From Candidatus Pacearchaeota archaeon (GTDB lineage Archaea > Nanobdellota > Nanobdellia > Pacearchaeales > GW2011-AR1): 64,000 bases of DNA. A program made the position numbers and the translations under genes. Below, piece by piece: positions 1 to 14,262 of this stretch. How positions within the stretch are numbered: position 1 is the stretch's first letter; every line of letters begins with the position of its first letter. The notes beneath the pieces are model-generated. The model made no database searches and had not been told where the DNA came from. It saw nothing but the letters and a program-made list of their open reading frames with translations. The stretch is taken from the NCBI GenBank assembly GCA_040879765.1, contig JBBDJQ010000001.1, forward strand, positions 348,023 to 412,022, read 5' to 3'.

Positions 1-109
1 AATTGAATTGAAAGTTATAAAATAAAAAATTCGTTTCCCTCCCAAAATACAATCGCTACTTCTCCGATTTTCTTTGAAAATCTCGATTTTTTCTCAAAGA
101 GAAAAAGGA

Positions 110-238
110 TTTAACAGGGGATAAAGAGTTCCGCCTTCACTCTGCCGTTCGGCTCCACCCAAATTCTTCTTCCAGCTCGAGCCTGTGAGGTTCCGCTCCA
201 GTCTCGAGGTCAGAAGAACTTTCCTTATCCCCGATGTT
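110..238 (+). repeat. attC-like structured hairpin element A1
   Basis: 5' TTTAACAGGGGATAAAGAG pairs with 3' CTTTCCTTATCCCCGATGTTAG. Central motif CACCCAAATTCTTCTTCC. Confidence 0.6.
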
Positions 239-265
239 AGTTTCAATTAAATCGGACTTTGAAAT

Positions 266-337
266 CCCCCGACCACCCGCCCCTAAAGAGGAGGATTCGC
301 CGTCGTCCTTCGGACATATAGTCTGCTTCGCAGAAAG
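266..337 (+). repeat. CCCCGACCACCCGCCCC module plus CGTCCTTCGGACATATAGTCT module
   Basis: CCCCCGACCACCCGCCCC recurs at 12284-12303. The second part recurs at 11345-11376. Confidence 0.55.
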
Positions 338-522
338 TAAAAACAGAAAAATACTTCTTTTATCGGACCGAAAAAACACCAACGAAATTTTAAGAAAATT
401 TCGCCTAACAAACGATAAAAGGTTTCACTTCGTTACACCCAAATATTTTTCAGTTTTTTATTGGGGCACTCTCAAAACCGAAAGCAAAACTTTTTATACG
501 AGTTTTCTTTTGTTAATTTATT

Positions 523-975
523 ATGGCTAAAGAAAATTGGATTAAAAAACACCCTGTTTGGTCAGGAGTTATCGGAGTTCTTTTATTGTTTATTTTGATT
601 GGAATGTTTAGTGGTGGAGATAATTCTTCTACAACAAATAAGCAATATACCGATGATACTAAAACAGCTGTTGAAAAAATGACTGCTCTTGAACAAATGG
701 AAATCGCTTTTGTTGGAGGTTACTCATATGATGAAATTAAAAATCGTATTGACTCAGTTATGCAACAATACGGATTATCAATGACTAACGAGAATTATAG
801 TCGGTTCGGAAGTGCTTTAGTTGCTGTTCGTAAAGAAACTGGGGCATCAGAAATGGATATACTCACATGCATGAAATCATTAGATTACAGAAATACGATT
901 GGTTGGGATAAAATAACTGCCGAAAAAGCTGTTCCAGATGCTGTAGGACTTTGTGGAGCCACTCTTAGTTCTTAA
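523..975 (+). CDS. Hypothetical membrane-anchored protein (N-terminal TM helix, soluble C-terminal domain)
   Basis: 150-aa ORF. Hydrophobic segment at residues 13-30. No recognisable catalytic motif. Lies between two attC-like hairpins. Confidence 0.5.
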   Translation: MAKENWIKKHPVWSGVIGVLLLFILIGMFSGGDNSSTTNKQYTDDTKTAVEKMTALEQMEIAFVGGYSYDEIKNRIDSVMQQYGLSMTNENYSRFGSALVAVRKETGASEMDILTCMKSLDYRNTIGWDKITAEKAVPDAVGLCGATLSS

Positions 976-976
976 A

Positions 977-1498
977 ATGGCAATTTTAATTTCCGTTAAA
1001 GTTTACAATCTTCAAACAACAGATTTTCATAATTTAATTTATGAAAAATTTAGAGAACTAATAAATAAAATTAAAGAAAATAAAACCCTTCATTCTTTTC
1101 ATTGGTTAATGGGTTCAGATGAAAGCTACGGAAATCAAATAAATCTTCACCTTAAAATTGAAGAAAATCAATCTCAGGAAATCAAAGATATAATCAACGA
1201 AATATTAAAAGATTATAAAATAAAAACTTCCGAAACCTCTGAAAAAGAAAATGCTGGAGATACAGAAACCTTAGGTCCAAATTGCAAATTTTTATTATCA
1301 GAATTCTTACATTCATGTTGTAAATTAGCTTTAGAAAGAACTAATCCAGAAAATAAAGAATACTTTTCTAAAGATTTAACCATTGAAAAATTTCTTCATT
1401 GTTTTCTAAATTCTCAAGGAATGACTTATCAGGAAGAAATTGTTTTTTGCACTAATTATGCAAATGCAATTCATAAAATGCTCTATGATTCAAAATAA
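977..1498 (+). CDS. Hypothetical protein
   Basis: The ATG at 977 lies 1 nt after the upstream stop, giving a tight pair with the 523-975 ORF. The ORF track starts this ORF at 953. No recognised domain. Confidence 0.45.
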   Translation: MAILISVKVYNLQTTDFHNLIYEKFRELINKIKENKTLHSFHWLMGSDESYGNQINLHLKIEENQSQEIKDIINEILKDYKIKTSETSEKENAGDTETLGPNCKFLLSEFLHSCCKLALERTNPENKEYFSKDLTIEKFLHCFLNSQGMTYQEEIVFCTNYANAIHKMLYDSK

Positions 1499-1515
1499 TA
1501 ACGAGAGGACCCTAT

Positions 1516-1641
1516 CTTCTTTTTGAAAAAAAGAAGCAAAAAGACGGCGAATCCTCTAATACATGAAAACCGATGGTTCCCACCATCCCAAAGTCCGATT
1601 TAACTTTACATTTTTGCCTTCGGCATCGTTGCACTAAAATG
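1516..1641 (+). repeat. Composite intergenic repeat: A/T palindrome (TTCTTTTTGAAAAAAAGAA) + CTCTAATACAT + CCCACCATCCCAAA...GCCTTCGGCATCGTTGCACTAAAA module
   Basis: The same three-part module recurs at 15216-15360. The palindrome part recurs at 1826-1863, 11261-11331 and 34397-34450. Confidence 0.6.
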
Positions 1642-1663
1642 TAATCCCTGCAAGTATTCGGGA

Positions 1664-1793
1664 GAAACTAACAGCAGATTAAGCGGTTCCAAAACCTTGC
1701 AGGTTTTTCCACCCATATTTTTGCTTCGCAAAAACACTCGGGGTCGTTTCACTCCGCCCGAGCCCTACGGGTCGCTTAATCGCGATGTTATAC
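1664..1793 (+). repeat. attC-like structured hairpin element A2
   Basis: 5' AACAGCAGATTAAGCGG pairs with 3' CGCTTAATCGCGATGTTAT. Internal CCTTGCAGG and CCACCCATATTTTTGCTTCG. Confidence 0.6.
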
Positions 1794-1982
1794 GCAATTA
1801 AATTTTCACTCTTTCTAAATATCATTCTTCTTTTAGAAAAAGAAGCAAAAGAGGGGGAGTCCAGGTGCTACGCACATTTACACTCACAACTTCGTTGTTC
1901 GAAATTTATTAGAGGGGGCTTTTAGTCCTTCGGACATTTTCACTCCCTTCGGTCGATATTTTTATAGGTGGGGCGAGAATGT

Positions 1983-2795
1983 TTAATGTTCCCAAGGAAA
2001 GAATCCAAGAACAGAATTATTTAATTCGTCTCTAAGTTGAGGCCATTGAGGTAAATGAGAATCCATCAAATTGAAAAATTTATCTGTATGATTTTTTTCT
2101 TTAAAATGAATCATTTCATGTAATAAAACATATTCTAAGCATCTAAGTGGATTTTTTGCAAGTTCCAAATTCAACCATATTCTTTTATCTTCAGCGTTAC
2201 AAGTTCCCCATTTTGTTTTCATCTTTTTAATAATAACTTCATTAACTTTAACTCCTGAATTCTTTTCCCATCTTTCTATAAGTTCAGGAATCTGTTTTTT
2301 AAGTTCTGCTCGATAAAAACTTTCAAGCATTTTCTCTTTTTGTTCTCTTGACATATTAGGCTTAACATACAAATCAATATGAGTTTTCTTTTTTATTTCA
2401 ACTCTAGGCTTATTTTCTGTATCAATTACATTCAATCTATACCTATTGCCTAAAAAATAATGACTTTCTCCAGAAATAAATTCTCTTTTAGTTTGTCTTT
2501 TTTGTCTCTCAAATTTCGCTTTTTGTTTTTTAATCCATGGAATTTTAGAAATTATGAATAATCTAATAGATTCATCATTCATCTTTTTTGGAGCTGCGAC
2601 CCTTATTCTACCTTGAGGAGGATAAACTCCCAAGTGCATATTTTTGATATTCTTCTTTACAGTTTGCACTTGTAAACCGCAAATCTGCATATTATCAAGA
2701 CTGGTACTCACTTTGAGCCTCCGCAATTTTGAAGACTTTCTCAACATTTTCGTCATCATCAATATCATATTTTGAAAGAGCTTTCTTAATCCCAA
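1983..2795 (-). CDS. M48/DUF45 (YgjP/WLM-like) zinc metallohydrolase
   Basis: HEMIH (HExxH) motif and the 'WI.KQ' N-terminal region typical of DUF45. An alternative ATG at 2690 would give a 4-nt overlap with the hsdR stop. This family is often found adjacent to hsdR. Confidence 0.75.
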   Translation of the reverse strand: MGLRKLFQNMILMMTKMLRKSSKLRRLKVSTSLDNMQICGLQVQTVKKNIKNMHLGVYPPQGRIRVAAPKKMNDESIRLFIISKIPWIKKQKAKFERQKRQTKREFISGESHYFLGNRYRLNVIDTENKPRVEIKKKTHIDLYVKPNMSREQKEKMLESFYRAELKKQIPELIERWEKNSGVKVNEVIIKKMKTKWGTCNAEDKRIWLNLELAKNPLRCLEYVLLHEMIHFKEKNHTDKFFNLMDSHLPQWPQLRDELNNSVLGFFPWEH

Positions 2796-5772
2796 TTCGG
2801 ATTTTTTTCTCTTTCATTTTATTGCCTTTCCAACTATCTTGTTTTGATTTTAAAATATTTTTATGGATAGAAACCGCAATATTTTCATCATTATCTAAAT
2901 TATCATATAAAGAACGCATTGCATTTGTTTCAATTGAGTCGGGATATTTTGTTTTCCCTGTATCTCTTACTCTCTTTATAAGTTCAGCAATTTTCTTTAA
3001 ATAATTAGCATAATCAATCGCTTTCTTTTTTCTATCAATTATTAATTCATCTAATAAGAAAGACATCCTTTCATAATATTTTGGATTAGTTGGTTTTTCT
3101 TCAATAATCAATCTACGAACATTATTTTCAATTGCTTCTGCTACTGCTTGTTTATTCTTTTTAATATTATCAGGCAAATCATTAACTGCATCTATTCCTT
3201 TTCTAATTATTAAATCAACAAGAGTCATATCTTCAAATGCTGAGATTGTTTTGCTTTCTTCAGCATCAATATATGAATCAATTAAATGCCTCATTGCTGG
3301 CTCATAAGCTTTCAAGTCAATATAATCTCCGCTAGCAAGCTTTACTTCTAGTCTTACCCCTTCATAATATTTTACTTCTTTTTTTATTTTTTCAATTTCT
3401 TGTTTAGTATATCCTGCCTTTGCCATTTCGTTTGCAAGATTTGAAAATGATCTTACTAACTTTGAAGTAAGTTTGTATAATGCAATTCTCTTTTGTTCGT
3501 TATTTTTCAAATCATCAGGATTTTCTGTATCCCCACAGAAGAATTCTATAAAAGCAAGTGTATCTTTTGGAGGTTTAACTGGTTCGCACAATACTTTGAT
3601 TGCCTCTCTTGAATCTTCAAGTTTTTCTTTTGATTTTTCAAGTCTGTCTTTAAGTAAACCTGCAACATCATCTTTATCAAATCCTTCAAATGCTTCAGAA
3701 GTATAATCAGTTACTGCCTTGTTTAAACTCTTGAATAAATCTTTATAATCAATTATATATCCATAATCTTTATCTTCAGAATCAAGCCTGTTTACTCTAC
3801 AAATTGCTTGAAATAATCCATGATCTTGCATACTTTTATCAATATAAAGATATGTTGCTGGTGGAGCATCAAAACCAGTCAATAGTTTATCAACCACAAT
3901 AAGAAGTTTCATCTGGTGTGGTTCTTTAATGAATTTATCTTTTATGATTCTTTCAAAAGTTTCTGCATCCTTAATATCTGAATAAATAGTTTTATAGAAT
4001 TTTATCATGTCTTGATATATTTGATATTTCTGAATGTTTTCTGTATCTTCATCCATATCAACAGTTTCTCCTTTAACAGAACTGATATCTCCCCCGTATG
4101 ATGAGATAATTGCACATTTTTTTAATCCATTTTTTTGAAATAATTCATAATATTTGCAAGCTTGATAAATGCTTCCTGCGACAAGAATTGCGTTTCCTCT
4201 TCCGCTGATTAATCTGTCTTTTGTTTCCATATCAAGCATAATATCTGCAACAATTCTGTTTAATCTCGCTTGAGAACTCAAAACTTTTCTCATTGTTCCC
4301 CATTTCTTTTTTAGCTCAACTTTAGCAAAATCATTTAATCCTCTAGTTTTTGCTTCAAACCATTGATCAATCTTATTTTGAGAATTTATTTTTTGGTCAA
4401 TTTCTCTTGCTTCGTATTGCAAATCAAGAACAACTTCATCTTCAACTGCTTCATCATATTTGTAAGTATGAATATATCTTCCAAATGTTTCTATACTTCT
4501 TTTTTTCTCGCTTTTTAGAAGTGGTGTTCCTGTAAAACCAATAAAGGTTGCATCAGGCAATATTTCAGTCATTGCTTCGTGCAATTTCCCAGATTGTGTT
4601 CTATGACATTCATCTACAAAAACATAAATATCTCCTTTTGCTTTAAAGTTTTGAGGGAGACTTATCTTAATCTCTTCAAGATATTTTTCAAAATCTGTTT
4701 CTGTGCTTCTACCAAATTTATGAACTAAAGAACACATAAGCCATGGTAATGTATTGTTTAATTTATTGATTAAGTCTCTCCCACTTTTAGTTCTATAAAT
4801 TTCTTCATTTACTCCCATAAAGAATTTTTCAATCTGACCGTCTAATTCTTCCCTGTCTGTTATGATTAGAACCCTTGAGTTTGTGATGTTTTCTCTTATC
4901 CATTTAGCAAGCCAAATCATGGTTAAGCTTTTTCCAGAGCCTTGGGTATGCCAAATTATTCCGCCTTCTTTTTTCTTGAGGTGTTTTTGTGCTGCTTTTA
5001 CTCCAAAATATTGATTATGTCTGCAAATCTTTTTGATTCCTGCATCAAAGACTATAAAATTGTGGATTAGTTCAAGAATTCTTTCTTTTTCGCAAATGGA
5101 GAGGAGATATTTATCTAATTTATTCTTTATGTTTTTGTTTTCTTTCCAGTTCAGATAATATTTTTCAGGAGTGAGAATTGTTGCATATCTTAATCCTTCT
5201 GTATCATTTCCAGCCATAACTAATTGGATTGTGCTAAAGAAATTTTGAATAAATGTGTTTTTTTGATTGTCCAAGTTTTGTCTTATACCTTCTGTAATTG
5301 AAACAGTGCTTCGTTTTAATTCTAAAACTCCAACAGCAATTCCGTTGATGTAGATGACAACATCAGGTCTCTTATTATGTTCTCCTTTGATTGTGACTTC
5401 TTCAGCTATTGCAAAATGGTTTTTCTTTATATTTGTCCAATCAATTAAATGAACAGTCTTTTTATTTTCTCCAACATTTTCTCTGACCTGGATTCCATAT
5501 CTAAGCATTTCATAGACTTCTTTATTGAGATCATAAAGCCCTTTGTTCTGTGCTTTTGCCGCCTTATTTAATTCATATAATGCTTTTTTGATTAAGTTTT
5601 CAGAATATTTCTGTTTTTTGAGGAATTTGATTAAAAGTTCTTCTTCAATATTTGAGTTTGTTCTTTCTTCCCAGTTTCCTAAATAATCATAATCCAGCTT
5701 ATCTTTATCAGTAAATAGCTTTATGACTCTGTCTTGAGTCTTTCTTTCAATTTGTGCGACATTCATTTCCAT
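2695..5772 (-). CDS. hsdR: Type I restriction enzyme R subunit (HsdR)
   Basis: 1025 aa. N-terminal PD-(D/E)xK nuclease region (DVVIYINGIAVGVLELK). Helicase motif I HTQGSGKSLTM, motif II VDECHR, and a TGTP motif. 10-nt overlap with the hsdS 3' end. Confidence 0.9.
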   Translation of the reverse strand: MEMNVAQIERKTQDRVIKLFTDKDKLDYDYLGNWEERTNSNIEEELLIKFLKKQKYSENLIKKALYELNKAAKAQNKGLYDLNKEVYEMLRYGIQVRENVGENKKTVHLIDWTNIKKNHFAIAEEVTIKGEHNKRPDVVIYINGIAVGVLELKRSTVSITEGIRQNLDNQKNTFIQNFFSTIQLVMAGNDTEGLRYATILTPEKYYLNWKENKNIKNKLDKYLLSICEKERILELIHNFIVFDAGIKKICRHNQYFGVKAAQKHLKKKEGGIIWHTQGSGKSLTMIWLAKWIRENITNSRVLIITDREELDGQIEKFFMGVNEEIYRTKSGRDLINKLNNTLPWLMCSLVHKFGRSTETDFEKYLEEIKISLPQNFKAKGDIYVFVDECHRTQSGKLHEAMTEILPDATFIGFTGTPLLKSEKKRSIETFGRYIHTYKYDEAVEDEVVLDLQYEAREIDQKINSQNKIDQWFEAKTRGLNDFAKVELKKKWGTMRKVLSSQARLNRIVADIMLDMETKDRLISGRGNAILVAGSIYQACKYYELFQKNGLKKCAIISSYGGDISSVKGETVDMDEDTENIQKYQIYQDMIKFYKTIYSDIKDAETFERIIKDKFIKEPHQMKLLIVVDKLLTGFDAPPATYLYIDKSMQDHGLFQAICRVNRLDSEDKDYGYIIDYKDLFKSLNKAVTDYTSEAFEGFDKDDVAGLLKDRLEKSKEKLEDSREAIKVLCEPVKPPKDTLAFIEFFCGDTENPDDLKNNEQKRIALYKLTSKLVRSFSNLANEMAKAGYTKQEIEKIKKEVKYYEGVRLEVKLASGDYIDLKAYEPAMRHLIDSYIDAEESKTISAFEDMTLVDLIIRKGIDAVNDLPDNIKKNKQAVAEAIENNVRRLIIEEKPTNPKYYERMSFLLDELIIDRKKKAIDYANYLKKIAELIKRVRDTGKTKYPDSIETNAMRSLYDNLDNDENIAVSIHKNILKSKQDSWKGNKMKEKKIRIGIKKALSKYDIDDDENVEKVFKIAEAQSEYQS

Positions 5773-6983
5773 TTTAATCTTATCCTGCCTGTTAATAATT
5801 GTTGCATCATACCTTCTTTAATCATTTGGTATTTATTACGCTTTTGTTCTAATTGTTCGATTTCAGAGTCCATATCTGAGAGGATTGAAGCGATTGCGGA
5901 TTGTTCCTTTTGATCATTTGGGATTTTTAACTCAAATTCTTGAAATGTGGGTAACCTCAAAGAATCAACTGTTGCTTTAACAGAGTTTTTTGTTGCCTGT
6001 TTATGAAAATCATAAAGCATATAGTAATAAATGAATTTCCCAGAAATTTCTCTGCCAAAATTACTTATTTTATACACTCTTTGATGATAGTCGAATTTTC
6101 CATTAATATAATGGAATATGCTACCAACTCCACCTTCTCCAGGCACAAGTATTGCTTCACCATCAAATGAATAAGAATTTATTCTCTCGACATTTTGTGA
6201 CCTTACAAAGAAAGGATATGAAGCTTCTTCAATTTTATCTTCATTATTTTTCTTGCCAGTTTTAATGTCAGTAAAATCTCCCAACTTCTTCTCTTCCCAT
6301 TCTCCACTAAACCCTGGCAGTCTTTTCTTTCCTGTCAAGAGTTCCTGCATTGCTCCTTTTTTGATGTCTTTCTTTTTTGAGATGAGTTTGTTGAGGTGTT
6401 GGATTAATTCATCAGTTTGTGAGAGGGCGGTTGCGATTGCTGATTGTTCTTGTTTTGACTTTGGGAGGGCAACTTTTGTTTTTCTGAATACATCCATCCC
6501 TACAAGATTTTTCATAGCTCCTCCTTGAGTGCTATCAATTATTTTATCCTGAAATTTTTCCCAATCAAAATATTGAAAGAAATAATCTTTATCAATAATG
6601 GACGAGTTTAACCTAATAATCAAAAGAGCTTGATTAATTATTCCTTGTGGGGCATTTTTAGGTATTAAATATATTCTTCCAATCGTGCCTGAACAACTCA
6701 CTATAAAATCTCCAGATTTGACTTCAAATCTTTTTAATTCCATAAATTTATTTTGATCAATATAATAGTCTCCAAGTTCTATGTCTCTGTAAATTGCATT
6801 TTTTTGTTCATAAACTTTTAGACCTCTTTTTACAAAAAACTCTTTTTTAAGTGAACCACCAAAAGGTCCTCTAATTAATCCATCAGATTCTGTTAGTTCT
6901 GAAAGAGTACCATCTTCCCAATCTTCAGGTATAACTCCTATTTCAGTTTGCTTGTATCCTTGTGGAATTGTTTCAGTCGTCAT
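5763..6983 (-). CDS. hsdS: Type I R-M specificity subunit (HsdS)
   Basis: 406 aa with two target-recognition domains. The conserved repeats AMQELLTGKKRL and MMQQLLTGRIRL are typical of HsdS. Confidence 0.85.
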   Translation of the reverse strand: MTTETIPQGYKQTEIGVIPEDWEDGTLSELTESDGLIRGPFGGSLKKEFFVKRGLKVYEQKNAIYRDIELGDYYIDQNKFMELKRFEVKSGDFIVSCSGTIGRIYLIPKNAPQGIINQALLIIRLNSSIIDKDYFFQYFDWEKFQDKIIDSTQGGAMKNLVGMDVFRKTKVALPKSKQEQSAIATALSQTDELIQHLNKLISKKKDIKKGAMQELLTGKKRLPGFSGEWEEKKLGDFTDIKTGKKNNEDKIEEASYPFFVRSQNVERINSYSFDGEAILVPGEGGVGSIFHYINGKFDYHQRVYKISNFGREISGKFIYYYMLYDFHKQATKNSVKATVDSLRLPTFQEFELKIPNDQKEQSAIASILSDMDSEIEQLEQKRNKYQMIKEGMMQQLLTGRIRLKWK

Positions 6984-6984
6984 A

Positions 6985-8631
6985 TTAGTCTACCTTCGTT
7001 AAAAAGACAAATAACAAATTGCCTTCTTTGTATTTAATTGGATGGATATTAACTAATATTTTATCTTGTTTTAACTCGTTATTAGCAGTTGTTTCAATTG
7101 TTACTGCCATATCACTTTTAAAATTGTAAACTGGATTTATAGTCTGGTCATCTTCAATCCCGTAAATAATACAATGTCTTGTTAACTTATCGACATCAAT
7201 ATATTTCTTAATAGTAGGAACTAAAGTATTCTTAGCAAATTCTGTGGGTTTAGGATTGTAAGCACTCGCTGATTTAAATTCTAAAATATCCTCATTAGTA
7301 GTCAATCCATCTGTTTTTTGAAATTCATATTCAATATCTGGCAGAAACGAATCTAATAGATATTCAAAAATATAATTAAAATGTTTGGATTTTATACAAG
7401 ATTGCATTAGATGGCAAAAAGAAACTTTTAGACTTAGTTTTAATTTTGCACTTTGAGCATCTTGGATTTTATTGATGAAATTAGATGTTAATTCCTCGAA
7501 GTTATGACATAAATTCAGATTATTATATATAATTAAATTTCCTATTCTAAAACTCTCCTTGCTTGCATCTTCTCCTGCATGATATACTTCGTATCTTGTA
7601 TTATTGAATATTGCATCGTTGATTTTTATTAATAAAGTCTGCTTTGGTTTTATGACTGGAGAATATTTAGTTGAAAATAAGATGTTATACCTTGGATGTG
7701 TTTTCCTTATTATTACCTCTTCTTCGTTTCCTTTAAATTCAGAAACAGAGTTTTCATCTTCAACATAACGATACTTATCATCTTTCATAAATTTACTTAA
7801 TCCTTCGGTGCTTGGAATCAATAAGTTAAATCTCTTCTTGTACTCATCTAGTTTTTCTGTTTCAGTTACAAAAAAATCATAAAATTTAGGATAATCTAAG
7901 GCTTTTCCATAAACGAATACTTTTGAGATTGTCCCTTCCTCTTTTCCTAAAATAATTTTTCCAGAGTGACTTATTTTACGCTCATCAATCATGCTTTTAA
8001 GTTGATCATTATCCAAGTTAATCTGCACAGGAATACTAATTGCATCTAATTCTATGTTTAAACAAATATTGCCTAAAGATTCCCAACCAATGTCTTCAAT
8101 CTCAATGCCCCAGAATTTAGCATGACCTTTGCTGAATTTTCTGCTTTGCTCATAAGCCAATAATTTTAAAATACCCTCTTCCTTTTTGATTATATCTGCT
8201 CGCACTATATTTTTTGAATGTAGTATTGTTTGTACAGATACAACTTTATCTTCAACCTCTGCCAGAGAAGGTCCTTTTTTACAATGAACAATAACAAACA
8301 CATCATTTAATTGTAAAACTGCAAGAATGAACTTTTCTTTCTCCCTTGATCTTGAATTTAAGACAGCCCTATATTCATTTATTATATCTTCAACTTCTGA
8401 TTCTTTCTTATCTGGATAGCTTGAAAAAACTAGGTTTAACCATTTCTTAACAGATGGATTTTCGGGAGATAAATCTTGTAGATTTCGTTTTTTCCCAATT
8501 ATTTTATCCTCCAGACTTCTGATTAATTCTCTAATACTTTTATCTTCTTCCACTTCATTAGAAAGTAAAATATCCTCTGCTTCTTTCTCTGGTTGATTTG
8601 CAAGTTTTTCCCAAAAGTATATCTTTGCCAT
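6985..8631 (-). CDS. Uncharacterised 548-aa protein embedded in the type I R-M operon (no P-loop, no recognised nuclease motif)
   Basis: The ATG at 8631 lies 1 nt after the hsdM stop. Its own stop lies 1 nt before the hsdS ATG. I recognise no signature domain. The ORF track extends the ORF to a TTG at 8643. Confidence 0.6.
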   Translation of the reverse strand: MAKIYFWEKLANQPEKEAEDILLSNEVEEDKSIRELIRSLEDKIIGKKRNLQDLSPENPSVKKWLNLVFSSYPDKKESEVEDIINEYRAVLNSRSREKEKFILAVLQLNDVFVIVHCKKGPSLAEVEDKVVSVQTILHSKNIVRADIIKKEEGILKLLAYEQSRKFSKGHAKFWGIEIEDIGWESLGNICLNIELDAISIPVQINLDNDQLKSMIDERKISHSGKIILGKEEGTISKVFVYGKALDYPKFYDFFVTETEKLDEYKKRFNLLIPSTEGLSKFMKDDKYRYVEDENSVSEFKGNEEEVIIRKTHPRYNILFSTKYSPVIKPKQTLLIKINDAIFNNTRYEVYHAGEDASKESFRIGNLIIYNNLNLCHNFEELTSNFINKIQDAQSAKLKLSLKVSFCHLMQSCIKSKHFNYIFEYLLDSFLPDIEYEFQKTDGLTTNEDILEFKSASAYNPKPTEFAKNTLVPTIKKYIDVDKLTRHCIIYGIEDDQTINPVYNFKSDMAVTIETTANNELKQDKILVNIHPIKYKEGNLLFVFLTKVD

Positions 8632-8632
8632 C

Positions 8633-11041
8633 CTACAACTCAAACCCCATATTCTTCAAATGACCTTCGACCTTCTTGCTCAATTCTTCAACTTCTTTTG
8701 TGAGTTCAGGAAGTGGTGCTTCATATCTTTCAGCTAACTCCTTAATTCTACCAGCTAATTTCTGCGAAATTCGTTCCATCTCGCTTTTAACTGCATTCCG
8801 AAGTGTTGTCATCCATTTATCATCAACAACTAAAACCTTAATCTCTTCTTCAGTCAAAGTATTATATTTCTTTAATAACTGCCTATCAAGAGTTTCTTCT
8901 GCTTCTTTGATTTGTTTCTTCAATACACTTTCCTTCTCAATCAAATCAAGATATTCTTGAAGAATTTTTAATTCGTCCAAATACTCAGAATCTCCTTTAA
9001 TTTCTTTGATTCTTTTGTTCAAATCGTTTTTAGTGATTTTTCCTGCATCACTTCGAGCATCAGCAAATAAGTCATCTTCTCCTGAATGTTCTTCTTCCAA
9101 ACTTTCTTTATTCTGAGAAACTTCTTCAAGCTCATTTTTTAGATTATCAATATTTTCTTGTTCAGCAGAAAAATATCTTTTTATAACAATCTCTTTAGGA
9201 ATTAAATCACAATCCCAGCCTGTTTCTTTTCCTTTCTTATTTTTTAGAATATTAATTTCAACTTTCCAACCACCAAAGACAACCATATAAGCATCATCCT
9301 GCATGGTTTCAGCCCAATAATTCATCAAATGCTGATAAACTTCATACTTATCAATCAAATCAAGTTTAGCAAACGAATTCAAAATATCTTCTGATATAGT
9401 AAAAATTAATTCTTTAGGTTTATCTGCTATCTTCAAAGCTTTCAAAACTTTAACATTTCTGTTCTCCCATTCATCAAATACTAACTCGATTTTTTTAGAA
9501 TATGCAATAAACTCAGGATGAGCAAATATGGAAGATTTAACCTTTTCATGTTCTATTTTAATCTTTACATATCCATCTCTTGAAGTAGCAAACAGTTCAT
9601 TTTGAAGAGTAGGATACACTTTCCAATATTCTCCTAAAGCTTCAACATCTTTTTTAGGAATGTCTCCTTTCAAATGCGCGTCAATATCTTGCATGTCTTC
9701 TTCTTCTTGGCTGTCAATATATCGAGGAATATTTAGATTATAATCGTTTTTCTCATTGCATATTTCAGTATGTGCAACCATCCTTGAATATTTTGGAAGT
9801 TCAAGCTGTTTGTTAAATACATCAACAATCTTATGAATATCTCTTGAACGTAAACGGTTTTTATTTCCGTCTTTATAGTATCCTTTGCTTGCATCTATCA
9901 TAAAAATACCTTTTCTATTTTCAGCATTTTCTTTATCTATAATTATTATACAAGCAGGAATTCCAGTTCCAAAAAACAAGTTAGCAGGAAGTCCAATAAT
10001 TCCTTTAATGTATCCTCTTTTGATTATGTTCTTTCTTATCTGTCCTTCAGCATTTCCTCTAAATAATACGCCATGCGGCAATATTACTGCTGCTTTTCCA
10101 GTACTCTTAAGAGACCTAATCATATGCAACAAGAAAGCATAATCCCCATTTTTCTTTGGAGGAATTCCAAAACCTTCAAATCTTCCGAATTCATCATTAT
10201 CTGCATCTAATCCATTACTCCAATTTTTACTGGAAAATGGAGGATTAGCTACTAAATAATCAAATGTCTTTAAGCCACCATCTGGATTTTTAAAATGAGG
10301 AGCAGAAAGAGTATTTCCCCTCCAAATATCAGCAGTAGGATTATTATGTAAAATCATATTCATCTTAGCCAAACCACGAGTTGCAACATCATTTTCTTGA
10401 CCGTAAATAGTAATTCCATGTTTTGTTTCAGAAGCTGCTTTCAACAATAATGAACCTGAACCACAAGTTGGATCATAAACTGTTTTTGCCTGACTATCTG
10501 CTTTTTCTATTTCAATAACTTTTGCCATGATTCTTGAAACTTCAGCAGGAGTATAAAATTGACCTTTACTTTTTCCTGATTCTGTTGCAAAATGTCTCAT
10601 TAGATATTCATAAGCATCTCCAAGCAAATCATCATCTTCTGCTCTATTCTTACTAAAATCTAAAGCAGGATTTTCAAAAATTGCAACAAGATTTGAAAGC
10701 CTATTCTGCATATCTTTTCCACTTCCAAGTTTGTCTGAATCATTAAAATCTGCAACATCAATAACTCCTTTTAATTCATTAGATTCTGCAAGTTTAGAAA
10801 TAATTTTATTCATTCCATCGCCGATTTCAGCTTTTCCTTTCAACTTTATCATATCATCAAAGCTTCCACCATTAGGAACATCAATTAAAAATTCTTGATC
10901 GGATTTTGCTTTATCAGAAACATATTTTACGAATAAAAGAACTAAGACATAATCTTTATACTGTGAGGCATCCATACCACCTCTTAATTCATCGCAACTT
11001 TTCCAAAGAGAGCTGTATAATTCACTTTTTTTTACTGCCAT
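8633..11041 (-). CDS. hsdM: Type I R-M N6-adenine DNA methyltransferase (HsdM) with ~300-aa C-terminal coiled-coil extension
   Basis: Motif I DPTCGSGSLL and motif IV NPPF. 802 aa. The C-terminal third is charged and coiled-coil-like. Confidence 0.9.
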   Translation of the reverse strand: MAVKKSELYSSLWKSCDELRGGMDASQYKDYVLVLLFVKYVSDKAKSDQEFLIDVPNGGSFDDMIKLKGKAEIGDGMNKIISKLAESNELKGVIDVADFNDSDKLGSGKDMQNRLSNLVAIFENPALDFSKNRAEDDDLLGDAYEYLMRHFATESGKSKGQFYTPAEVSRIMAKVIEIEKADSQAKTVYDPTCGSGSLLLKAASETKHGITIYGQENDVATRGLAKMNMILHNNPTADIWRGNTLSAPHFKNPDGGLKTFDYLVANPPFSSKNWSNGLDADNDEFGRFEGFGIPPKKNGDYAFLLHMIRSLKSTGKAAVILPHGVLFRGNAEGQIRKNIIKRGYIKGIIGLPANLFFGTGIPACIIIIDKENAENRKGIFMIDASKGYYKDGNKNRLRSRDIHKIVDVFNKQLELPKYSRMVAHTEICNEKNDYNLNIPRYIDSQEEEDMQDIDAHLKGDIPKKDVEALGEYWKVYPTLQNELFATSRDGYVKIKIEHEKVKSSIFAHPEFIAYSKKIELVFDEWENRNVKVLKALKIADKPKELIFTISEDILNSFAKLDLIDKYEVYQHLMNYWAETMQDDAYMVVFGGWKVEINILKNKKGKETGWDCDLIPKEIVIKRYFSAEQENIDNLKNELEEVSQNKESLEEEHSGEDDLFADARSDAGKITKNDLNKRIKEIKGDSEYLDELKILQEYLDLIEKESVLKKQIKEAEETLDRQLLKKYNTLTEEEIKVLVVDDKWMTTLRNAVKSEMERISQKLAGRIKELAERYEAPLPELTKEVEELSKKVEGHLKNMGFEL

Positions 11042-11042
11042 A

Positions 11043-11189
11043 TTATTCTCGCCCCCTCTTCTTTAGTTCTTCTTCCATACACTTTTCAAATTGACGAGAT
11101 ACAATCCAACCCTCATGTTTACAGAGTTCTCTATATTTATCATATAATTTCGTATTAACTTTCAATGTGATATTTTTACTTTCTTCCAT
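11043..11189 (-). CDS. Small ribbon-helix-helix (CopG-like) protein, putative operon regulator
   Basis: 48-aa ORF, MEESKNITLKVNTKLYDKYRELCKHEGWIVSRQFEKCMEEELKKRGRE, absent from the ORF track because it is below the length cut-off. It has a beta-strand followed by two helices. Its stop TAA lies 1 nt before the hsdM ATG. It is preceded by a GAGGGGGCGAGAATG SD-like motif. Confidence 0.5.
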   Translation of the reverse strand: MEESKNITLKVNTKLYDKYRELCKHEGWIVSRQFEKCMEEELKKRGRE

Positions 11190-11260
11190 TCTCGCCCCCT
11201 CTGATGATTAGACTAAATATAAATAACCGCACATATTTATAAATATTGCTATAATACAAT

Positions 11261-11376
11261 GTTCTTTTAGAAAAAGAACCAAAAGTAAAAGCCCCCTCTT
11301 TTTTCTTTTTTAAAAAAAGAAACAAAAAATCTGGACTCCCCCTCGTCCTTCGGACATATAGTCTCCTACGGAGAAA
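11261..11376 (+). repeat. Two A/T palindromes plus a 'CGTCCTTCGGACATATAGTCT' module in the divergent hsdM/hydrolase intergenic region
   Basis: GTTCTTTTAGAAAAAGAAC and TTTTTTCTTTTTTAAAAAAAGAAA palindromes. CCTCGTCCTTCGGACATATAGTCTCCTACGGAGAAA matches 298-337 and is partly shared with 1925-1955 and 34318-34340. Confidence 0.55.
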
Positions 11377-11430
11377 TTTATTATCGTGAAAATTTAACTG
11401 AGCCTTCGGCTTTTTTTCTTGCAGAAAAAA

Positions 11431-11513
11431 CGTATAACAGCGATTAAGAGGAAATTTCCTGCTGAAATTTCCCAAATTCGCTTCGCGAACTTCTCTTAAT
11501 CGCGATGTTATGT
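11431..11513 (+). repeat. attC-like structured hairpin element A3
   Basis: 5' ATAACAGCGATTAAGAGG pairs with 3' CTCTTAATCGCGATGTTAT. Loop AAATTTCCTGCTGAAATTTCCCAAATT is identical to that of A4. Confidence 0.65.
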
Positions 11514-11574
11514 GCAATTTTTGGCGGCGGCTAGAAGAAACTTTTATTAATCCTGCTTCCTTTATTTATTAACT

Positions 11575-12132: not shown

Positions 12133-12180
12133 CGCCGCCGCCAAAAACTGTCCCTTCGGTCGTTCGCCTTGCAGGCTCAC

Positions 12181-12262
12181 CACATAACAAGGGATAAAAG
12201 GAAATTTCCTGCTGAAATTTCCCAAATTGCCTTCGGCAACTTCTTTTATCCCTAACGTTCAA
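12181..12262 (+). repeat. attC-like structured hairpin element A4
   Basis: 5' ATAACAAGGGATAAAAGG pairs with 3' CTTTTATCCCTAACGTT. Same loop as A3. Confidence 0.65.
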
Positions 12263-12373
12263 GGAAATCACAGATGAGTCTAAAGCCCCCGACCACCCGC
12301 CCCAAAATAGTCAAATCAAAGATTTGAAATTATCATTAGAGACTGCGTGCAAAACAAAAAGTAAGGAGAGGAT

Positions 12374-13537: not shown

Positions 13538-13647
13538 AAATAAAACAACGCGCGCCGCCCCACCATCCAAAAATTCCAAATTAACTCTGCGGTGCTCACT
13601 TCGTTCCGCTCCTCGCCATGTCTTGCAGACTTTCGCCTTTGGCTCAG

Positions 13648-13736
13648 GACAGATAACAGTGATTATCTGGGATTTTCCTGCAAAAAATCCTCAAATTTCA
13701 CTTCGTGAAACTTCAGATAATCGCGATGTTGCTTGG
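13648..13736 (+). repeat. attC-like structured hairpin element A5
   Basis: 5' GATAACAGTGATTATCTGG pairs with 3' CAGATAATCGCGATGTTG. Loop GATTTTCCTGCAAAAAATCCTCAAATTTCAC. Confidence 0.6.
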
Positions 13737-13788
13737 CTTCGCCCAAAGAAGAAAAATTTATAAGTAACCATTCATCTTTTATTATATT

Positions 13789-14064: not shown

Positions 14065-14162
14065 ATCTTTCTTCTTTTCCCACCCTAATTTACTGCACCT
14101 AAAACTCAAAATCCTTTGGATTTTGCCACGCCTTGCAGGCTCTCCTCCTTTCAGTCGTCGGG

Positions 14163-14262
14163 TCACTTAACAAGGATTATACGGTTCAGCCCTCGGCTCG
14201 GGCTTCACCCAAATTTTTCTTCCACTTCGTTACAGAAAAACTTCTTATATCCCTAACGTTAG
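14163..14262 (+). repeat. attC-like structured hairpin element A6
   Basis: 5' CTTAACAAGGATTATACGG pairs with 3' CTTATATCCCTAACGTTAG. Central CACCCAAATTTTTCTTCC as in A1. Confidence 0.55.

What the first reader, a model, noticed from the sequence alone, without database searches (positions are those of the whole stretch)
1500..1982. 480-nt gene-free convergent spacer made entirely of reusable GC-rich modules
No credible ORF lies between 1498 and 1983. The spacer is a mosaic of modules that recur elsewhere. There is an A/T palindrome (1516-1544) with near copies at 1826-1852, 11261-11285, 11299-11331, 15216-15246 and 34397-34425. CTCTAATACAT at 1552-1565 also occurs at 15255-15269. CCCACCATCCCAAA...GCCTTCGGCATCGTTGCACTAAAA at 1575-1641 also occurs at 15269-15360 and partly at 13552-13600. 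The attC-like hairpin A2 follows. Last come UUCG-type tetraloop stems (CCTTCGG, GCTTCGC, CCCTACGGG, GTCCTTCGGAC at 1925-1955, which also occurs at 298-337, 11345-11376 and 34318-34340). In a roughly 30% GC genome these GC-rich, UUCG-capped stems stand out strongly. They may be transcription terminators or 3' UTR stabilisers for convergent genes, recombination or attI-like sites, or mobile mini-elements.
Basis: seen in the sequence. Interest (0 to 1): 0.55.

Follow-up and report, generated by a model that had tools for sequence, protein, structure and literature searches.

The report
Archaeal gene-cassette junction with recombination hairpin
The gene-free spacer is the joint between two mobile gene cassettes in an integron-like array of a tiny (DPANN) archaeon, built around a hairpin recombination site, and the array appears to be served by an ordinary Xer-type recombinase rather than a classical integron integrase.

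Summary
Window 1499-1982 has no credible ORF, is 42% GC in a 33% GC genome, and every listed module recurs.

The modules are not independent. The spacer is the junction of two cassettes in an integron-like array (window 1 to about 15358) of a Pacearchaeota/Woesearchaeota-like archaeon.

Its core is an imperfect palindrome (1664-1795, AAC...GTT), one of six in the window, all on the + strand.
- The stem covaries in 10 of 12 pairs.
- The 6 nt before each AAC complement the 6 nt after the previous site's GTT: 44 junctions in genomes and 69 in metagenome contigs score 5.0-5.3 of 6, against a null of 2.3-2.7. This marks circular cassettes recombined at G|TT.
- Two other genomes share a 2.5 kb cassette at different array positions, with homology ending at GTT on both sides.

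A tyrosine recombinase lies 0.66 kb left of the window, divergent from the array. The same layout holds for 39 of 40 sites in related genomes and in 5 of 5 metagenome contigs.

Four features differ from classical integrons: the recombinase is XerA-type without the IntI-specific domain, attI carries a dif-like palindrome, the bulge sits on the opposite arm, and loop motifs are conserved.

The rest of the spacer is cassette trailer and leader. Verdict: a new variant of a known kind.

The parts
1..25 (+). 3' end of the methyltransferase ORF of cassette 1. The cassette starts outside the window, at the attI junction.
   Evidence: L001 8991-9503 equals window -487 to 25. Pfam Methyltransf_11.
104..253 (+). 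Hairpin site A (attC-like) that closes cassette 1. AAC at 113-115, GTT at 236-238.
   Evidence: CM hits of 72.8 and 69.9 bits. Its N6 GGATTT is the reverse complement of AAATCC after the attI GTT.
237..1787 (+). Cassette 2: leader 237-470, own TATA-like promoter region, two ORFs of unknown function (523-975 and 953/977-1498), trailer 1499-1660, and hairpin B.
   Evidence: Start TTAGTTTC and end GAAACTAAC are complementary 6/6. Leader and trailer are 89-92% identical to a cassette frame in L015 and L033 that holds a different payload.
1515..1543 (+). A/T palindrome plus AAGCAAAAAG, 17 nt after the ORF stop. Has T-runs on both strands. Proposed bidirectional terminator.
   Evidence: 8 copies against 1.6 expected. 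Same position and order in trailers of other genomes, with compensatory changes in the stem. Function is inferred.
1554..1592 (+). CTCTAATACAT (1554-1564) and the CCCACCATCCCAAA box (1579-1592): conserved trailer motifs of unknown role.
   Evidence: Coordinates. The same order recurs in trailers of L015, L033, L028, L003 and L023. CCCNCCCNAA occurs 5 times against 1.0 expected.
1616..1660 (+). Trailer hairpin GCCTTCGGC, the YTGCRC motif (CGTTGCACTAAAA), and CCCTGCAAG just upstream of the site.
   Evidence: 92% copy at 15317-15354. The motif ACG(Y)TGC(R)C precedes most sites in other genomes.
1661..1804 (+). Hairpin site B (attC-like), the core of the finding. N6+AAC 1664-1672, 5' stem arm 1673-1685, 3' stem arm 1773-1783, 2-nt bulge GA 1784-1785, TGTT 1786-1789 (crossover proposed between G1787 and T1788), N6' ATACGC 1790-1795, CAAT 1795-1798.
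   Evidence: CM hits of 44.9 and 53.1 bits. DNA fold -28.8 kcal/mol, z = -4.4. Coordinates.
1788..11507 (+). Cassette 3, 9.7 kb. Carries a type I restriction-modification island on the minus strand (YgjP-like, HsdR, HsdS, unknown 552 aa, HsdM).
   Evidence: Start TTATACGC and end ACGTATAAC are complementary 5/6. The same start/end pair encloses only about 0.65 kb in L018. Pfam calls.
1797..1982 (+). Leader of cassette 3: CAATTAAATTTTCAC, second A/T palindrome 1825-1851, GAGGGGGAGTCCAGG, hairpins CAACTTCGTTG (1887-1897) and GTCCTTCGGAC (1925-1935), TATA-like TTTTTATA (1959-1966), GGTGGGGCGAGAATG (1967-1981).
   Evidence: Coordinates. An inverted, patchy copy lies at 11186-11400.
11186..11400 (-). 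Inverted copy of the leader. It abuts the start of the restriction-modification operon, so the island is flanked by inverted repeats.
   Evidence: Alignment A3; I1. The Logan contigs of the same sample break at window 1855 and 11410.
11427..11524 (+). Hairpin site C. AAC 11436-11438, GTT 11507-11509.
   Evidence: 94.1 bits. DNA fold z = -6.8 to -7.0.
12177..12274 (+). Hairpin site D, closing the serine-hydrolase cassette (ORF 11575-12132).
   Evidence: 78.5 bits. Junction C->D 5/6. Pfam Ser_hydrolase.
13646..13745 (+). Hairpin site E, after a segment with a small lipoprotein-like ORF (-) and a TrmB-family regulator (+).
   Evidence: 72.6 bits. Junction D->E fails at 1/6, so this segment has been rearranged or a site has been lost.
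14160..14275 (+). Hairpin site F, after a 91-aa ORF. GTT at 14258-14260.
   Evidence: 68.0 bits. Junction E->F fails at 2/6.
14259..15358 (+). Last cassette (membrane-protein ORF 14461-15207 plus trailer). It lacks its hairpin and abuts the stop codon of rnhB.
   Evidence: 15220-15358 is 96% identical to L028 7982-7842, which is followed there by a site at 7721-7824. RNase HII by Pfam.
34318..34545 (+). Solitary degenerate unit outside the array, with the same module order: GTCCTTCGGAC, A/T palindrome, CTCTCTAAT, CCCTCCCC, hairpin, GAGATGTTCAAG.
   Evidence: Read. Not found by the CM at E<0.1.

Best explanation
The spacer is the boundary between two gene cassettes of a chromosomal, integron-like gene-capture array in a DPANN archaeon. 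The closest recombinase relatives are in Pacearchaeota and Woesearchaeota MAGs.

A cassette reads: TT-N6'-CAAT leader, payload genes with their own promoters in either orientation, trailer, N6-AAC, long hairpin, G. In the spacer, 1499-1660 is the trailer of cassette 2, 1664-1789 is its hairpin recombination site, and 1788-1982 is the leader of cassette 3.

Proposed mechanism. The tyrosine recombinase encoded 0.66 kb left of the window excises cassettes as circles by recombining two hairpin sites at G|TT. It inserts circles at the G|TT that follows a palindrome next to its own gene (attI). The hairpin is probably used as folded single-stranded DNA, as in bacterial integrons.

The A/T palindromes with T-runs most likely end transcription of the payload in both directions. 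The other GC-rich stems and C-rich boxes are conserved parts of the cassette frame, possibly accessory sites for the recombinase or folding aids. Their role is not established.

Shown here: the site family, base-pair covariation, junction complementarity, uniform orientation, linkage to the recombinase, and one cassette found at different array positions in two genomes.

Inferred: that this recombinase is the catalyst, that single-stranded DNA is the substrate, and the terminator role.
For: (1) Site family. Six sites lie in the window, all on +, only between 104 and 14275, with none in the remaining 50 kb.

(2) Structure. On an alignment fitted to a different register, 83.6% of cells pair against 37-48% for slid registers. 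Ten of 12 stem pairs show changes on both sides. 71 cells carry double changes against 30.6 +/- 4.1 in shuffles, 0 of 500 reaching that. DNA folds give z = -3.1 to -7.0 in five of six sites.

(3) Junction rule. The 6 nt before AAC of site n are the reverse complement of the 6 nt after GTT of site n-1 or of attI.
- 44 junctions in the window and 16 genomes: mean 5.02 of 6; null 2.32, sd 0.21; 0 of 20000 resamplings reach it.
- 77% score >=5 of 6 against 6.3% in the null. The site's own adjacent flank scores only 2.15.
- 69 independent junctions in metagenome contigs: mean 5.28 of 6; 84% >=5 of 6 against 7.9%.

(4) Linkage. The Logan contig L001 extends the window leftwards and carries a 267-aa tyrosine recombinase divergent from the array. 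In related genomes 39 of 40 sites lie upstream of and divergent from the homologous gene. The same holds in 5 of 5 metagenome contigs that carry the gene. In the loci aligned beyond the start codon (L002, L005, L015, L023, L033), homology upstream of the recombinase gene ends within a few tens of bases of the attI GTT (-620 to -544 against -577).

(5) Mobility. L033 2858-284 and L015 9481-6991 share a 2.5 kb cassette at 84-88% identity. It is 5th in one array and 3rd in the other. Homology begins at the GATGTT of unrelated upstream hairpins and ends <=3 nt after the GTT of the shared downstream hairpin.

(6) Arrays. 38 of 39 multi-site metagenome contigs have all sites in one orientation, with median spacing 881 nt.

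(7) Cargo is typical of integron cassettes: restriction-modification, methyltransferase, hydrolase, small membrane or secreted proteins, and unknowns (compare PMC9668308).

(8) Ghaly et al. 2022 list attC clusters without an IntI in Pacearchaeales, Woesearchaeales and Aenigmatarchaeota.
Against: - The recombinase lacks the IntI-specific domain that defines integron integrases. It scores as archaeal XerA, so it could be a housekeeping enzyme that merely lies nearby.
- Two of six junctions in the window (D->E, E->F) and one attI junction (L023) break the complementarity rule.
- The bulge is on the opposite arm from that of a bona fide Shewanella integron, and there is no unpaired central spacer. 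The classical strand-selection logic therefore cannot simply be transferred.
- No excised circle, no recombination assay and no transcript data are available.
- Junction complementarity fixes the unit but not by itself the crossover position. The G|TT assignment rests on attI and on the cassette shared by L015 and L033.
- I could not run the standard attC model (IntegronFinder).
Confidence: 0.82

Rival explanations
1. The modules are generic transcription terminators or 3' UTR stabilisers of convergent genes. GC-rich UUCG-capped stems and A/T palindromes end or protect transcripts, and nothing recombines.
For: - The A/T palindrome sits 17 nt after the stop at 1498 and 9 nt after the stop at 15207. 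It also lies between the convergent genes at 34228/34554, and it has T-runs on both strands.
- All tetraloop-like loops read UUCG/UACG on the array's top strand.
Against: - It does not explain the junction complementarity, the strict linkage and orientation relative to the recombinase gene, or the cassette shared at different positions.
- The same modules flank payloads of either orientation, so they are not tied to the 3' ends of genes.
- The hairpin sites are absent from about 50 kb of ordinary genes in the window.
Confidence: 0.05
2. The hairpins are non-autonomous mobile repeats (MITE- or REP-like) that insert between genes on their own. The array is just a region where they pile up.
For: - High copy number in metagenomes: 150 sites in 386 kb of contigs selected by a 17-mer.
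- The non-coding modules are about 90% identical between genomes whose recombinase genes are only about 70% identical.
- One solo degenerate copy lies at 34318-34545.
Against: - I saw no terminal inverted repeats with target-site duplications.
- All copies in an array point the same way (38 of 39 contigs).
- The flanks of one site are not complementary to each other but to the neighbouring sites (own flank 2.15 of 6 against 5.0 for neighbours). This is what excision of the segment between sites predicts, not insertion of the repeat itself.
- The unit shared by L015 and L033 is payload plus one hairpin, bounded by GTT.
Confidence: 0.04
3. The GC-rich structured stretches are genes for non-coding RNAs, as in other AT-rich archaea where GC-rich islands mark RNA genes. 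The covariation would then reflect RNA structure.
For: - GC is 42-47% against 33% genome-wide.
- Covariation is clear in the main stem and in the two-hairpin module hairpin-ACAGATAGTC-hairpin, with 13 strict instances.
- Loops are UUCG-type on one strand.
Against: - No Rfam family matches 1-2100 at E<=1. In 11100-15450 there are only three sub-threshold matches (E 0.1-0.5, far below gathering scores), which I take as chance.
- An RNA gene does not predict complementarity between flanks of neighbouring copies, or linkage to a recombinase.
- The complement of the loop, C-GAA-G, is also a very stable DNA mini-hairpin motif (from my own knowledge). Loop identity therefore does not separate RNA from DNA folding.
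- A transcript-level role for some modules is not excluded.
Confidence: 0.06
4. Same cassette array, different chemistry. The recombinase is the cell's ordinary XerA and works on double-stranded sites, as Xer does at dif and with integrated elements that exploit Xer. The long palindromes would then matter for other reasons, such as cruciforms or accessory-protein binding.
For: - The protein passes the NCBIfam archaeal XerA equivalog cut-off, 235 against 220 bits.
- The site next to the gene is a palindrome with 10-16 bp arms and a 6-nt (14 of 18) or 4-nt spacer, the architecture described for archaeal dif (PMC2958812).
- No IntI domain is present to read extrahelical bases.
Against: - The exchange point (GTT) lies outside the palindrome arm, 10-16 nt (the arm length) plus 0-6 nt from its spacer, not at the spacer border where Xer enzymes cut.
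- The stems of the cassette sites covary freely in sequence. That points to pairing, not to recognition of a fixed double-stranded sequence.
- The two arms of a cassette site are 30-200 nt apart, unlike any known double-stranded Xer core.
Confidence: 0.15

Closest known systems
Integrons (IntI / attI / attC gene-cassette arrays), including the archaeal integrons and IntI-less attC clusters (CALINs) of Ghaly et al. 2022 (PMC9668308)
   Same: - Divergent tyrosine recombinase gene, insertion site next to it, and a one-directional array of short cassettes, each ending in an imperfect palindrome bounded by AAC...GTT.
- Crossover at G|TT.
- The start of each cassette is complementary to the 5' box of its own site.
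- Cargo of restriction-modification, methylase, small secreted or membrane proteins and unknowns.
- Sites are more alike within a lineage.
- CALINs have already been listed for Pacearchaeales, Woesearchaeales and Aenigmatarchaeota.
   Different: - The recombinase has no IntI-specific domain.
- attI carries a 10-16 bp-arm palindrome abutting the GTT.
- A 2-nt bulge sits on the 3' arm instead of single bulges on the 5' arm, and there is no unpaired central spacer.
- The 'variable' loop holds nearly invariant CCCAAATT and AACTTC motifs.
- About 150 nt upstream and about 235 nt downstream of the site are conserved and travel with it.
- Payloads seem to have their own TATA-like promoters and lie in either orientation.
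Vibrio chromosomal 'super-integrons' with VCR repeats
   Same: A sedentary chromosomal array next to housekeeping genes, with highly similar recombination sites along the array, many unknown ORFs, and arrays that break assemblies.
   Different: A bacterial IntI with the extra domain, canonical bulge polarity, and sites of about 120-130 nt without long conserved flanks. My model of the archaeal sites finds nothing significant in 517 kb of bacterial loci that include Vibrio, Shewanella and Photobacterium integrons.
Xer/dif chromosome-dimer resolution in Archaea (XerA; Cortez et al. 2010, PMC2958812) and elements that exploit Xer, such as CTX phage, which integrates as folded single-stranded DNA (from my own knowledge)
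   Same: - The recombinase is XerA by profile score.
- The site beside the gene has the arm-spacer-arm layout of dif.
- In several lineages the inner arm ends read CATAA-N6-TTATG, like bacterial dif as I recall it.
- Use of a folded hairpin by a Xer enzyme has a precedent in CTX phage.
   Different: - In Thermococcales, dif is not next to xerA.
- Xer cuts at the spacer borders, whereas here the exchange point lies outside the arm.
- Elements that exploit Xer are flanked by short double-stranded dif-like sites, not by 75-220 nt hairpins in tandem arrays.
pdif modules of Acinetobacter plasmids (from my own knowledge)
   Same: Discrete gene modules bounded by sites for a Xer-type recombinase, with the same module found in different contexts.
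   Different: pdif sites are 28-bp double-stranded XerC/XerD sites in alternating orientation. There are no hairpins, no single orientation, and no platform next to the recombinase gene.

Membership tests
Integron (classical definition, as in IntegronFinder) | Tyrosine recombinase gene adjacent to and divergent from the cassette array | tested here: met
   A 267-aa Phage_integrase protein lies at L001 8011-8814 (-), 0.66 kb left of the window start. The same layout holds for 39 of 40 sites in related genomes and in 5 of 5 metagenome contigs.
Integron (classical definition, as in IntegronFinder) | IntI-specific additional domain around patch III | tested here: not met
   TIGR02249 matches in two pieces that skip profile positions of about 181-253. 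PRK15417 matches only at 254-330. In PDB 2A3V, chain residues of about 180-241 are unmatched. The BLASTP alignment with a Shewanella IntI shows 52 gap positions, with the largest block of about 50 columns directly after GKGKKDR.
Integron (classical definition, as in IntegronFinder) | attC sites: imperfect palindromes bounded by ...AAC and GTT... that fold as a single strand | tested here: met
   AAC and GTT are invariant in 36 of 36 sites. 83.6% of cells pair and 10 of 12 stem pairs covary. The AAC..GTT distance is 49-222 nt, median about 85.
Integron (classical definition, as in IntegronFinder) | Extrahelical bases on the R''-L'' arm and an unpaired central spacer between the R and L boxes | tested here: not met
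   Read away from the recombinase gene, the archaeal sites have one 2-nt bulge on the 3' arm and no internal loop. In the two Shewanella L055 attCs whose R box forms in the predicted fold, single-nt bulges lie on the 5' arm and there is a 3x3 internal loop; the third (3672-3769) shows the 5'-arm bulges only.
Integron (classical definition, as in IntegronFinder) | Cassette boundaries at G|TT, so that the first bases of a cassette complement the 5' box of its own attC | tested here: met
   113 junctions score 5.0-5.3 of 6 against a null of 2.3-2.7. The shared cassette is bounded by GTT on both sides. Exceptions: D->E and E->F in the window, and the attI junction of L023.
Integron (classical definition, as in IntegronFinder) | attI: a simple double-stranded site next to intI, with direct-repeat binding sites | tested here: inconclusive
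   The insertion point is next to the gene, and in this genome GGTTACTA is repeated. However, 18 of 29 loci have a >=9 bp palindrome with a 4-6 nt spacer ending 0-6 nt before the GTT. Classical attI sites do not have this.
Integron (classical definition, as in IntegronFinder) | Sites score above threshold with the IntegronFinder attC covariance model | not testable with these tools
   The model is not available here. Indirect support: Ghaly et al. report 2-5 attCs and no IntI in Pacearchaeales, Woesearchaeales and Aenigmatarchaeota MAGs. None of my loci's contigs appears in their tables.
Integron (classical definition, as in IntegronFinder) | Mostly promoterless cassettes expressed from a common promoter Pc | not tested
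   By eye, TTTATA-like boxes lie about 25-35 nt before the ATG of the cassette ORFs at 523, 11575, 13789 and 14461, and payloads occur in both orientations. This suggests self-contained expression. No transcript data are available.
Archaeal Xer/dif system | Recombinase is an orthologue of XerA | tested here: met
   NCBIfam NF040815 (recomb_XerA_Arch, equivalog) scores 235 bits against a cut-off of 220. The best PDB matches are P. abyssi XerA 4A8E (1.1e-46) and 5HXY.
Archaeal Xer/dif system | One dif site of two 11-bp inverted arms and a 6-bp spacer in the replication terminus, with cutting at the spacer borders | tested here: inconclusive
   The layout is present beside the gene. The exchange point inferred for cassettes lies outside the arm. 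The terminus position and whether this is the only Xer gene could not be examined; there is no second tyrosine recombinase in the 64 kb window.
MITE / REP-type repeats | Element bounded by terminal inverted repeats with a target-site duplication, inserted independently in either orientation | tested here: not met
   Orientation is uniform. Flanks are complementary to neighbouring sites, not to each other.
Known RNA families (Rfam 15) | Match to a curated covariance model | tested here: not met
   Only four tRNAs reach gathering scores in the window. There is nothing at E<=1 in 1-2100, and only three chance-level matches in 11100-15450.

The most novel reading that the evidence does not exclude
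In Pacearchaeota, Woesearchaeota and Aenigmatarchaeota the cell's ordinary XerA recombinase doubles as the integrase of a gene-cassette platform. On this reading the palindrome beside its gene is, or derives from, the chromosomal dif site. The system would be a Xer-run 'proto-integron': either an independent invention of the integron principle or a living picture of how integron integrases arose from Xer enzymes. It would work without the IntI-specific domain and with the opposite hairpin asymmetry. The long conserved frames (about 0.5 kb around each site), which hold different payloads in different genomes, could also show how new cassettes are made.
Probability: 0.3. Interest if true: 0.85.

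Novelty: new variant of a known kind. Interest (0 to 1): 0.62.

Why it matters
Integrons are the main known device by which prokaryotes stockpile and shuffle single genes. Their integrase is defined by an extra domain that reads extrahelical bases of folded attC sites.

Only six IntI genes were found in the first survey of archaeal integrons, and most archaeal attC clusters had none (PMC9668308). Here a whole family of arrays is tied to a short XerA-type recombinase that lacks that domain. The family spans 16 related genomes and more than 80 metagenome contigs.

If that enzyme does the work, three things follow.
- Many 'orphan' archaeal attC clusters have an unrecognised integrase, and search tools that require the IntI domain miss them.
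- The extra domain is not essential for hairpin-site cassette recombination.
- The step from Xer/dif to integron becomes directly testable.

The conserved cassette frames with swapped payloads also bear on the old question of where cassettes come from. For genome-reduced, host-dependent DPANN archaea, the array is a likely store of defence and surface genes.

Tried and rejected
- **Rfam.** At gathering thresholds on the window, and at E<=1 on 1-2100 and 11100-15450, I found only tRNAs and three chance-level matches.
- **First covariance model (R1).** I gave it a structure shifted by one column. The slide control exposed this (48.8% paired at register 0 against 77.7% at +1). I corrected the structure and rebuilt the model as R2. 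R1 results are used only as a list of sites.
- **Missing partners.** Exact searches for the expected partner words of junctions D->E and E->F found nothing in the window. These two junctions remain unexplained.
- **R1 on bacterial loci.** In 517 kb, including real Vibrio, Shewanella and Photobacterium integrons, there was one weak hit. This is a good specificity control. It also means the model says nothing about similarity to canonical attCs.
- **Viral contigs.** The 17-mer CTCTTAATCGCGATGTT matched one contig, which the CM does not confirm. No phage link.
- **Chance level of the 17-mer.** By my own rough estimate, a 17-mer alone could give tens of chance hits in the metagenome collection. 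I therefore counted only sites confirmed by the CM.
- **Synteny.** The SMC gene downstream of the recombinase is not conserved in other loci, so this says nothing about a housekeeping role.
- **Ghaly et al. supplements.** I found neither my contigs nor the site sequence there.
- **Crossover at AA|C.** I considered a crossover on the 5' side of the hairpin. Junction complementarity alone cannot exclude it. I rejected it because attI has a GTT but no AAC, because payloads between attI and the first hairpin vary, and because the L015/L033 cassette travels with its downstream hairpin.
- **Internal hairpin at 342-455.** I considered that 236-455 is a separate ORF-less cassette ending in the AT-rich hairpin at 342-455. 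Its flanks do not obey the junction rule, while A->B does at 6 of 6. I treat it as a fossil.
- **Positive control in Shewanella L055.** It was only partly usable, because my quick pattern missed intermediate attCs. The one truly adjacent pair gave 6 of 6.
- **Not attempted.** GC-skew placement of the array relative to the terminus, because local gene orientation confounds it.
Full report
**1. The observation**

Window 1499-1982 lies between a + strand ORF ending at 1498 and a - strand YgjP-like gene ending at 1983. It holds only 40-48 aa ORFs. It is 42% GC, against 33% for the window and 19-32% for nine of ten other intergenic regions.

- The A/T palindrome occurs 8 times against 1.6 expected.
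- 1602-1639 matches 15317-15354 at 92%, and 293-336 matches 11333-11376 at 86%.
- Exact positions are given.

**2. The organism**

Two tRNA genes with long introns, an initiator tRNA starting AGCGCGG, archaeal DtdA and Kae1, and low GC point to an archaeon. The closest relatives of the recombinase described below are in Pacearchaeota and Woesearchaeota MAGs at 55-77% identity.

**3. The core element**

Reading the other copies showed that the 'attC-like hairpin' is one of six related imperfect palindromes. They lie at 104-253, 1661-1804, 11427-11524, 12177-12274, 13646-13745 and 14160-14275, all on the + strand. All share the form N6-AAC-AG-stem...stem-GA-TGTT-N6'-CAAT.

Five of the six fold as single-stranded DNA well beyond shuffled controls, with z from -3.1 to -7.0; site F reaches only z = -1.8.

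Covariance models built from them find no further significant site in the remaining 50 kb of the window.

My first model had its structure shifted by one column, which the slide control revealed. With the right register, on an alignment that had not been fitted to it:
- 83.6% of cells pair, against 37-48% in slid registers.
- 10 of 12 stem pairs show changes on both sides.
- Double changes number 71, against 30.6 +/- 4.1 in shuffles.

The pairing itself is therefore under selection.

**4. The sites delimit cassettes**

In integron arrays the first bases of a cassette belong to the recombination site at its far end. The box before a site's AAC therefore complements the bases after the previous site's GTT, not its own flank. 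That is what I find.

| Data set | Junctions | Mean match (of 6) | Null | Share >=5 of 6 | Null share |
|---|---|---|---|---|---|
| Window and 16 related genomes | 44 | 5.02 | 2.32, sd 0.21 (0 of 20000 resamplings reach the observed mean) | 77% | 6.3% |
| Independent metagenome contigs | 69 | 5.28 | 2.7 | 84% | 7.9% |

A site's own adjacent flank scores 2.15 in the first set. The metagenome contigs were retrieved with a 17-mer and confirmed with the model.

In the window, the junctions attI->A, A->B, B->C and C->D obey the rule (6, 6, 5 and 5 of 6). D->E and E->F do not (1 and 2 of 6), and I found no partner words for them. Those two segments have been rearranged or have lost a site.

Within contigs the sites point the same way in 38 of 39 cases, with a median spacing of 881 nt.

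**5. The recombinase and the insertion site**

A Logan contig from SRR27977663 is identical to the window over 1-1855 and extends it leftwards. It carries a 267-aa tyrosine recombinase on the opposite strand, ending 0.66 kb before the window.

Eighty-seven bases from its start codon lies catG|TTAAATCC. Its last six bases are the exact complement of the box before the first hairpin (GGATTTAAC).

In related genomes 39 of 40 model hits lie upstream of and divergent from the homologous gene. The same is true in all five metagenome contigs that carry the gene. In the loci aligned beyond the start codon (L002, L005, L015, L023, L033), sequence conservation upstream of the gene ends within a few tens of bases of the GTT. 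The N6' after the attI GTT complements the first hairpin's box in 14 of 15 loci, with a mean of 5.47 of 6.

**6. Direct evidence for mobility**

L033 and L015 share a 2.5 kb cassette, a three-gene operon, at 84-88% identity. It is the fifth cassette in one array and the third in the other.

Homology begins at the GATGTT of two unrelated upstream hairpins (189 nt and 109 nt). It ends within 3 nt after the GTT of the shared downstream hairpin.

So the unit is TT...payload...hairpin...G, with the hairpin at the distal end and the exchange at G|TT, as in integrons. I had considered a crossover on the AAC side, which junction complementarity alone cannot exclude. This case, and the structure of attI (a GTT but no AAC), argue against it.

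**7. Anatomy of the spacer**

- **1499-1660, trailer of cassette 2.** It holds the A/T palindrome plus AAGCAAAAAG (1515-1543), CTCTAATACAT (1554-1564), a CCCACC box (1579-1592), a GCCTTCGGC hairpin with CGTTGCACTAAAA (1616-1639), and CCCTGCAAG (1646-1654).
- **1664-1789, hairpin site B.**
- **1788-1982, leader of cassette 3.** It holds CAATTAAATTTTCAC, a second A/T palindrome, GC-rich boxes, two UUCG-type hairpins, a TATA-like box, and GGTGGGGCGAGAATG.

The same modules in the same order flank sites in other genomes. Blocks 211-470, 1510-1740 and 15220-15358 are 89-96% identical to other genomes, while the recombinase genes are only about 70% identical at the DNA level.

In L015 and L033 the frame of my cassette 2 encloses a different payload in the opposite orientation. 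The modules therefore belong to the cassette frame, not to particular genes.

One sub-module, hairpin-ACAGATAGTC-hairpin, has 13 strict instances, 12 of them in array orientation, with covariation in both stems. Its role is unknown.

The A/T palindrome sits right after stop codons, has T-runs on both strands, and shows a compensatory change (CTTAC...GTAAG). I take it to be a bidirectional terminator, but that is inference.

A degenerate solo unit with the same module order lies at 34318-34545. The last cassette (14259-15358) has lost its hairpin: its trailer is 96% identical to L028, where a site follows.

**8. Why the spacer looks 'convergent'**

Cassette 3 (1788-11507) carries a type I restriction-modification island on the minus strand. 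The island is flanked by inverted, patchy copies of the leader, at 1797-1982 and 11186-11400.

The assemblies of the source sample break at 1855 and 11410. In L018 the same cassette start and end enclose only about 0.65 kb. This suggests that the island entered, or flips within, an older small cassette.

**9. Differences from classical integrons**

- *No IntI domain.* The recombinase passes the NCBIfam equivalog for archaeal XerA (235 against 220 bits). It matches integron-integrase profiles only in two pieces that skip the IntI-specific domain. A pairwise alignment with a Shewanella IntI shows about 50 missing residues right after GKGKKDR.
- *Palindrome at attI.* In 18 of 29 loci, attI carries a palindrome with 10-16 bp arms and a 6-nt (14 of 18) or 4-nt spacer, ending 0-6 nt before the GTT. 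The arm sequences differ between lineages. This is the layout described for archaeal dif (PMC2958812), but the exchange point lies outside the arm.
- *Opposite bulge polarity.* Read away from the recombinase gene, the sites have a 2-nt bulge on the 3' arm and no unpaired central spacer.
- *Conserved loop motifs.* The loop region holds nearly invariant CCCAAATT and AACTTC.
- *Long conserved flanks.* These travel with each site.
- *Self-contained payloads.* They seem to have their own promoters and lie in either orientation.

My model of these sites finds nothing significant in 517 kb of bacterial loci with real integrons.

**10. What is known**

Ghaly et al. 2022 reported integrons in 75 archaeal MAGs, with only six IntIs. 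They list attC clusters without an IntI in Pacearchaeales, Woesearchaeales and Aenigmatarchaeota. Part of this family has therefore probably been seen already as orphan attC clusters.

I found no paper in the held library that links such arrays to a Xer-type recombinase, a palindromic attI or the reversed asymmetry. That is an absence in this library, not proof of novelty.

**11. Verdict**

The finding is real and is explained. It is a cassette junction with an attC-like recombination site in an archaeal, integron-like array.

It works like an integron. It fails two defining membership features, the IntI domain and the extrahelical-base and spacer geometry. I therefore file it as a new variant of a known kind.

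Still open: whether the XerA-type enzyme is the catalyst, which strand or form of DNA is used, what the extra frame modules do, and whether attI is the chromosomal dif.

Noticed in passing
window 1983-11185, with flanks 1797-1982 and 11186-11400: A 9 kb type I restriction-modification island (YgjP-like, HsdR, HsdS, an unknown 552-aa protein, HsdM) sits inside one cassette in reverse orientation, between inverted copies of a cassette leader. Contigs of the source sample break at 1855 and 11410. It may be an invertible segment or a secondary insertion.
   Followed up: partly
window 52398-52550 (-): A GC-rich (44%) intergenic stretch reads like a tRNA gene with a long intron: acceptor GCCCCGA...TCGGGGC and T-arm CCAGGTTCGAGTCCTGG. 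ARAGORN and Rfam both missed it.
   Followed up: no
window 16230-16363 and 57256-57385: Two tRNA genes with introns of about 56-60 nt, found by Rfam but not by ARAGORN.
   Followed up: no
window 16350-16363 and 16430-16443: The 3' end of the intron-containing tRNA (CTGCCCGAGGCGTT) is repeated 80 nt downstream. This could be the scar of an element that once integrated into the tRNA gene.
   Followed up: no
window 58460-64000: A long ORF region with many internal direct repeats of 150-300 nt at 72-96% identity (families D1-D6). It looks like a repetitive surface protein.
   Followed up: no
L001 5152-8010 (-), just left of the window: The gene immediately downstream of the recombinase, overlapping it, is a short (952 aa) SMC-like ATPase. 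It scores below the SMC equivalog cut-offs. The adjacency is not conserved in related genomes.
   Followed up: partly
window 236-470 (also L015 9503-9245 and L033 2873-2621): The leader of cassette 2 is about 89% conserved across three genomes. It contains what look like fossil site halves: AACAG...CAGTT at 342-455 and CGCCTAACAAACGATAAAAGG at about 403-423. It also has a C-rich box, CCCCCGACCACCCGCCCC, whose complement has four G-runs.
   Followed up: partly
L023 about 2510 and about 887 (minus-strand reading): The 40 nt after the attI GTT (TTAAATCCAATAGCGATTGTAATTGATAAACCCCACCCAA) recur after the first hairpin of the same array. The first cassette there breaks the junction rule. This points to a duplication or gene conversion at attI.
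   Followed up: no
L015 9461-9782 and 5838-6203: An ORF-less 213-nt unit (hairpin plus GTTCTATGCAATTTTGCTCC...) occurs at least three times in one array, twice in tandem. These are empty cassettes that have been duplicated.
   Followed up: no
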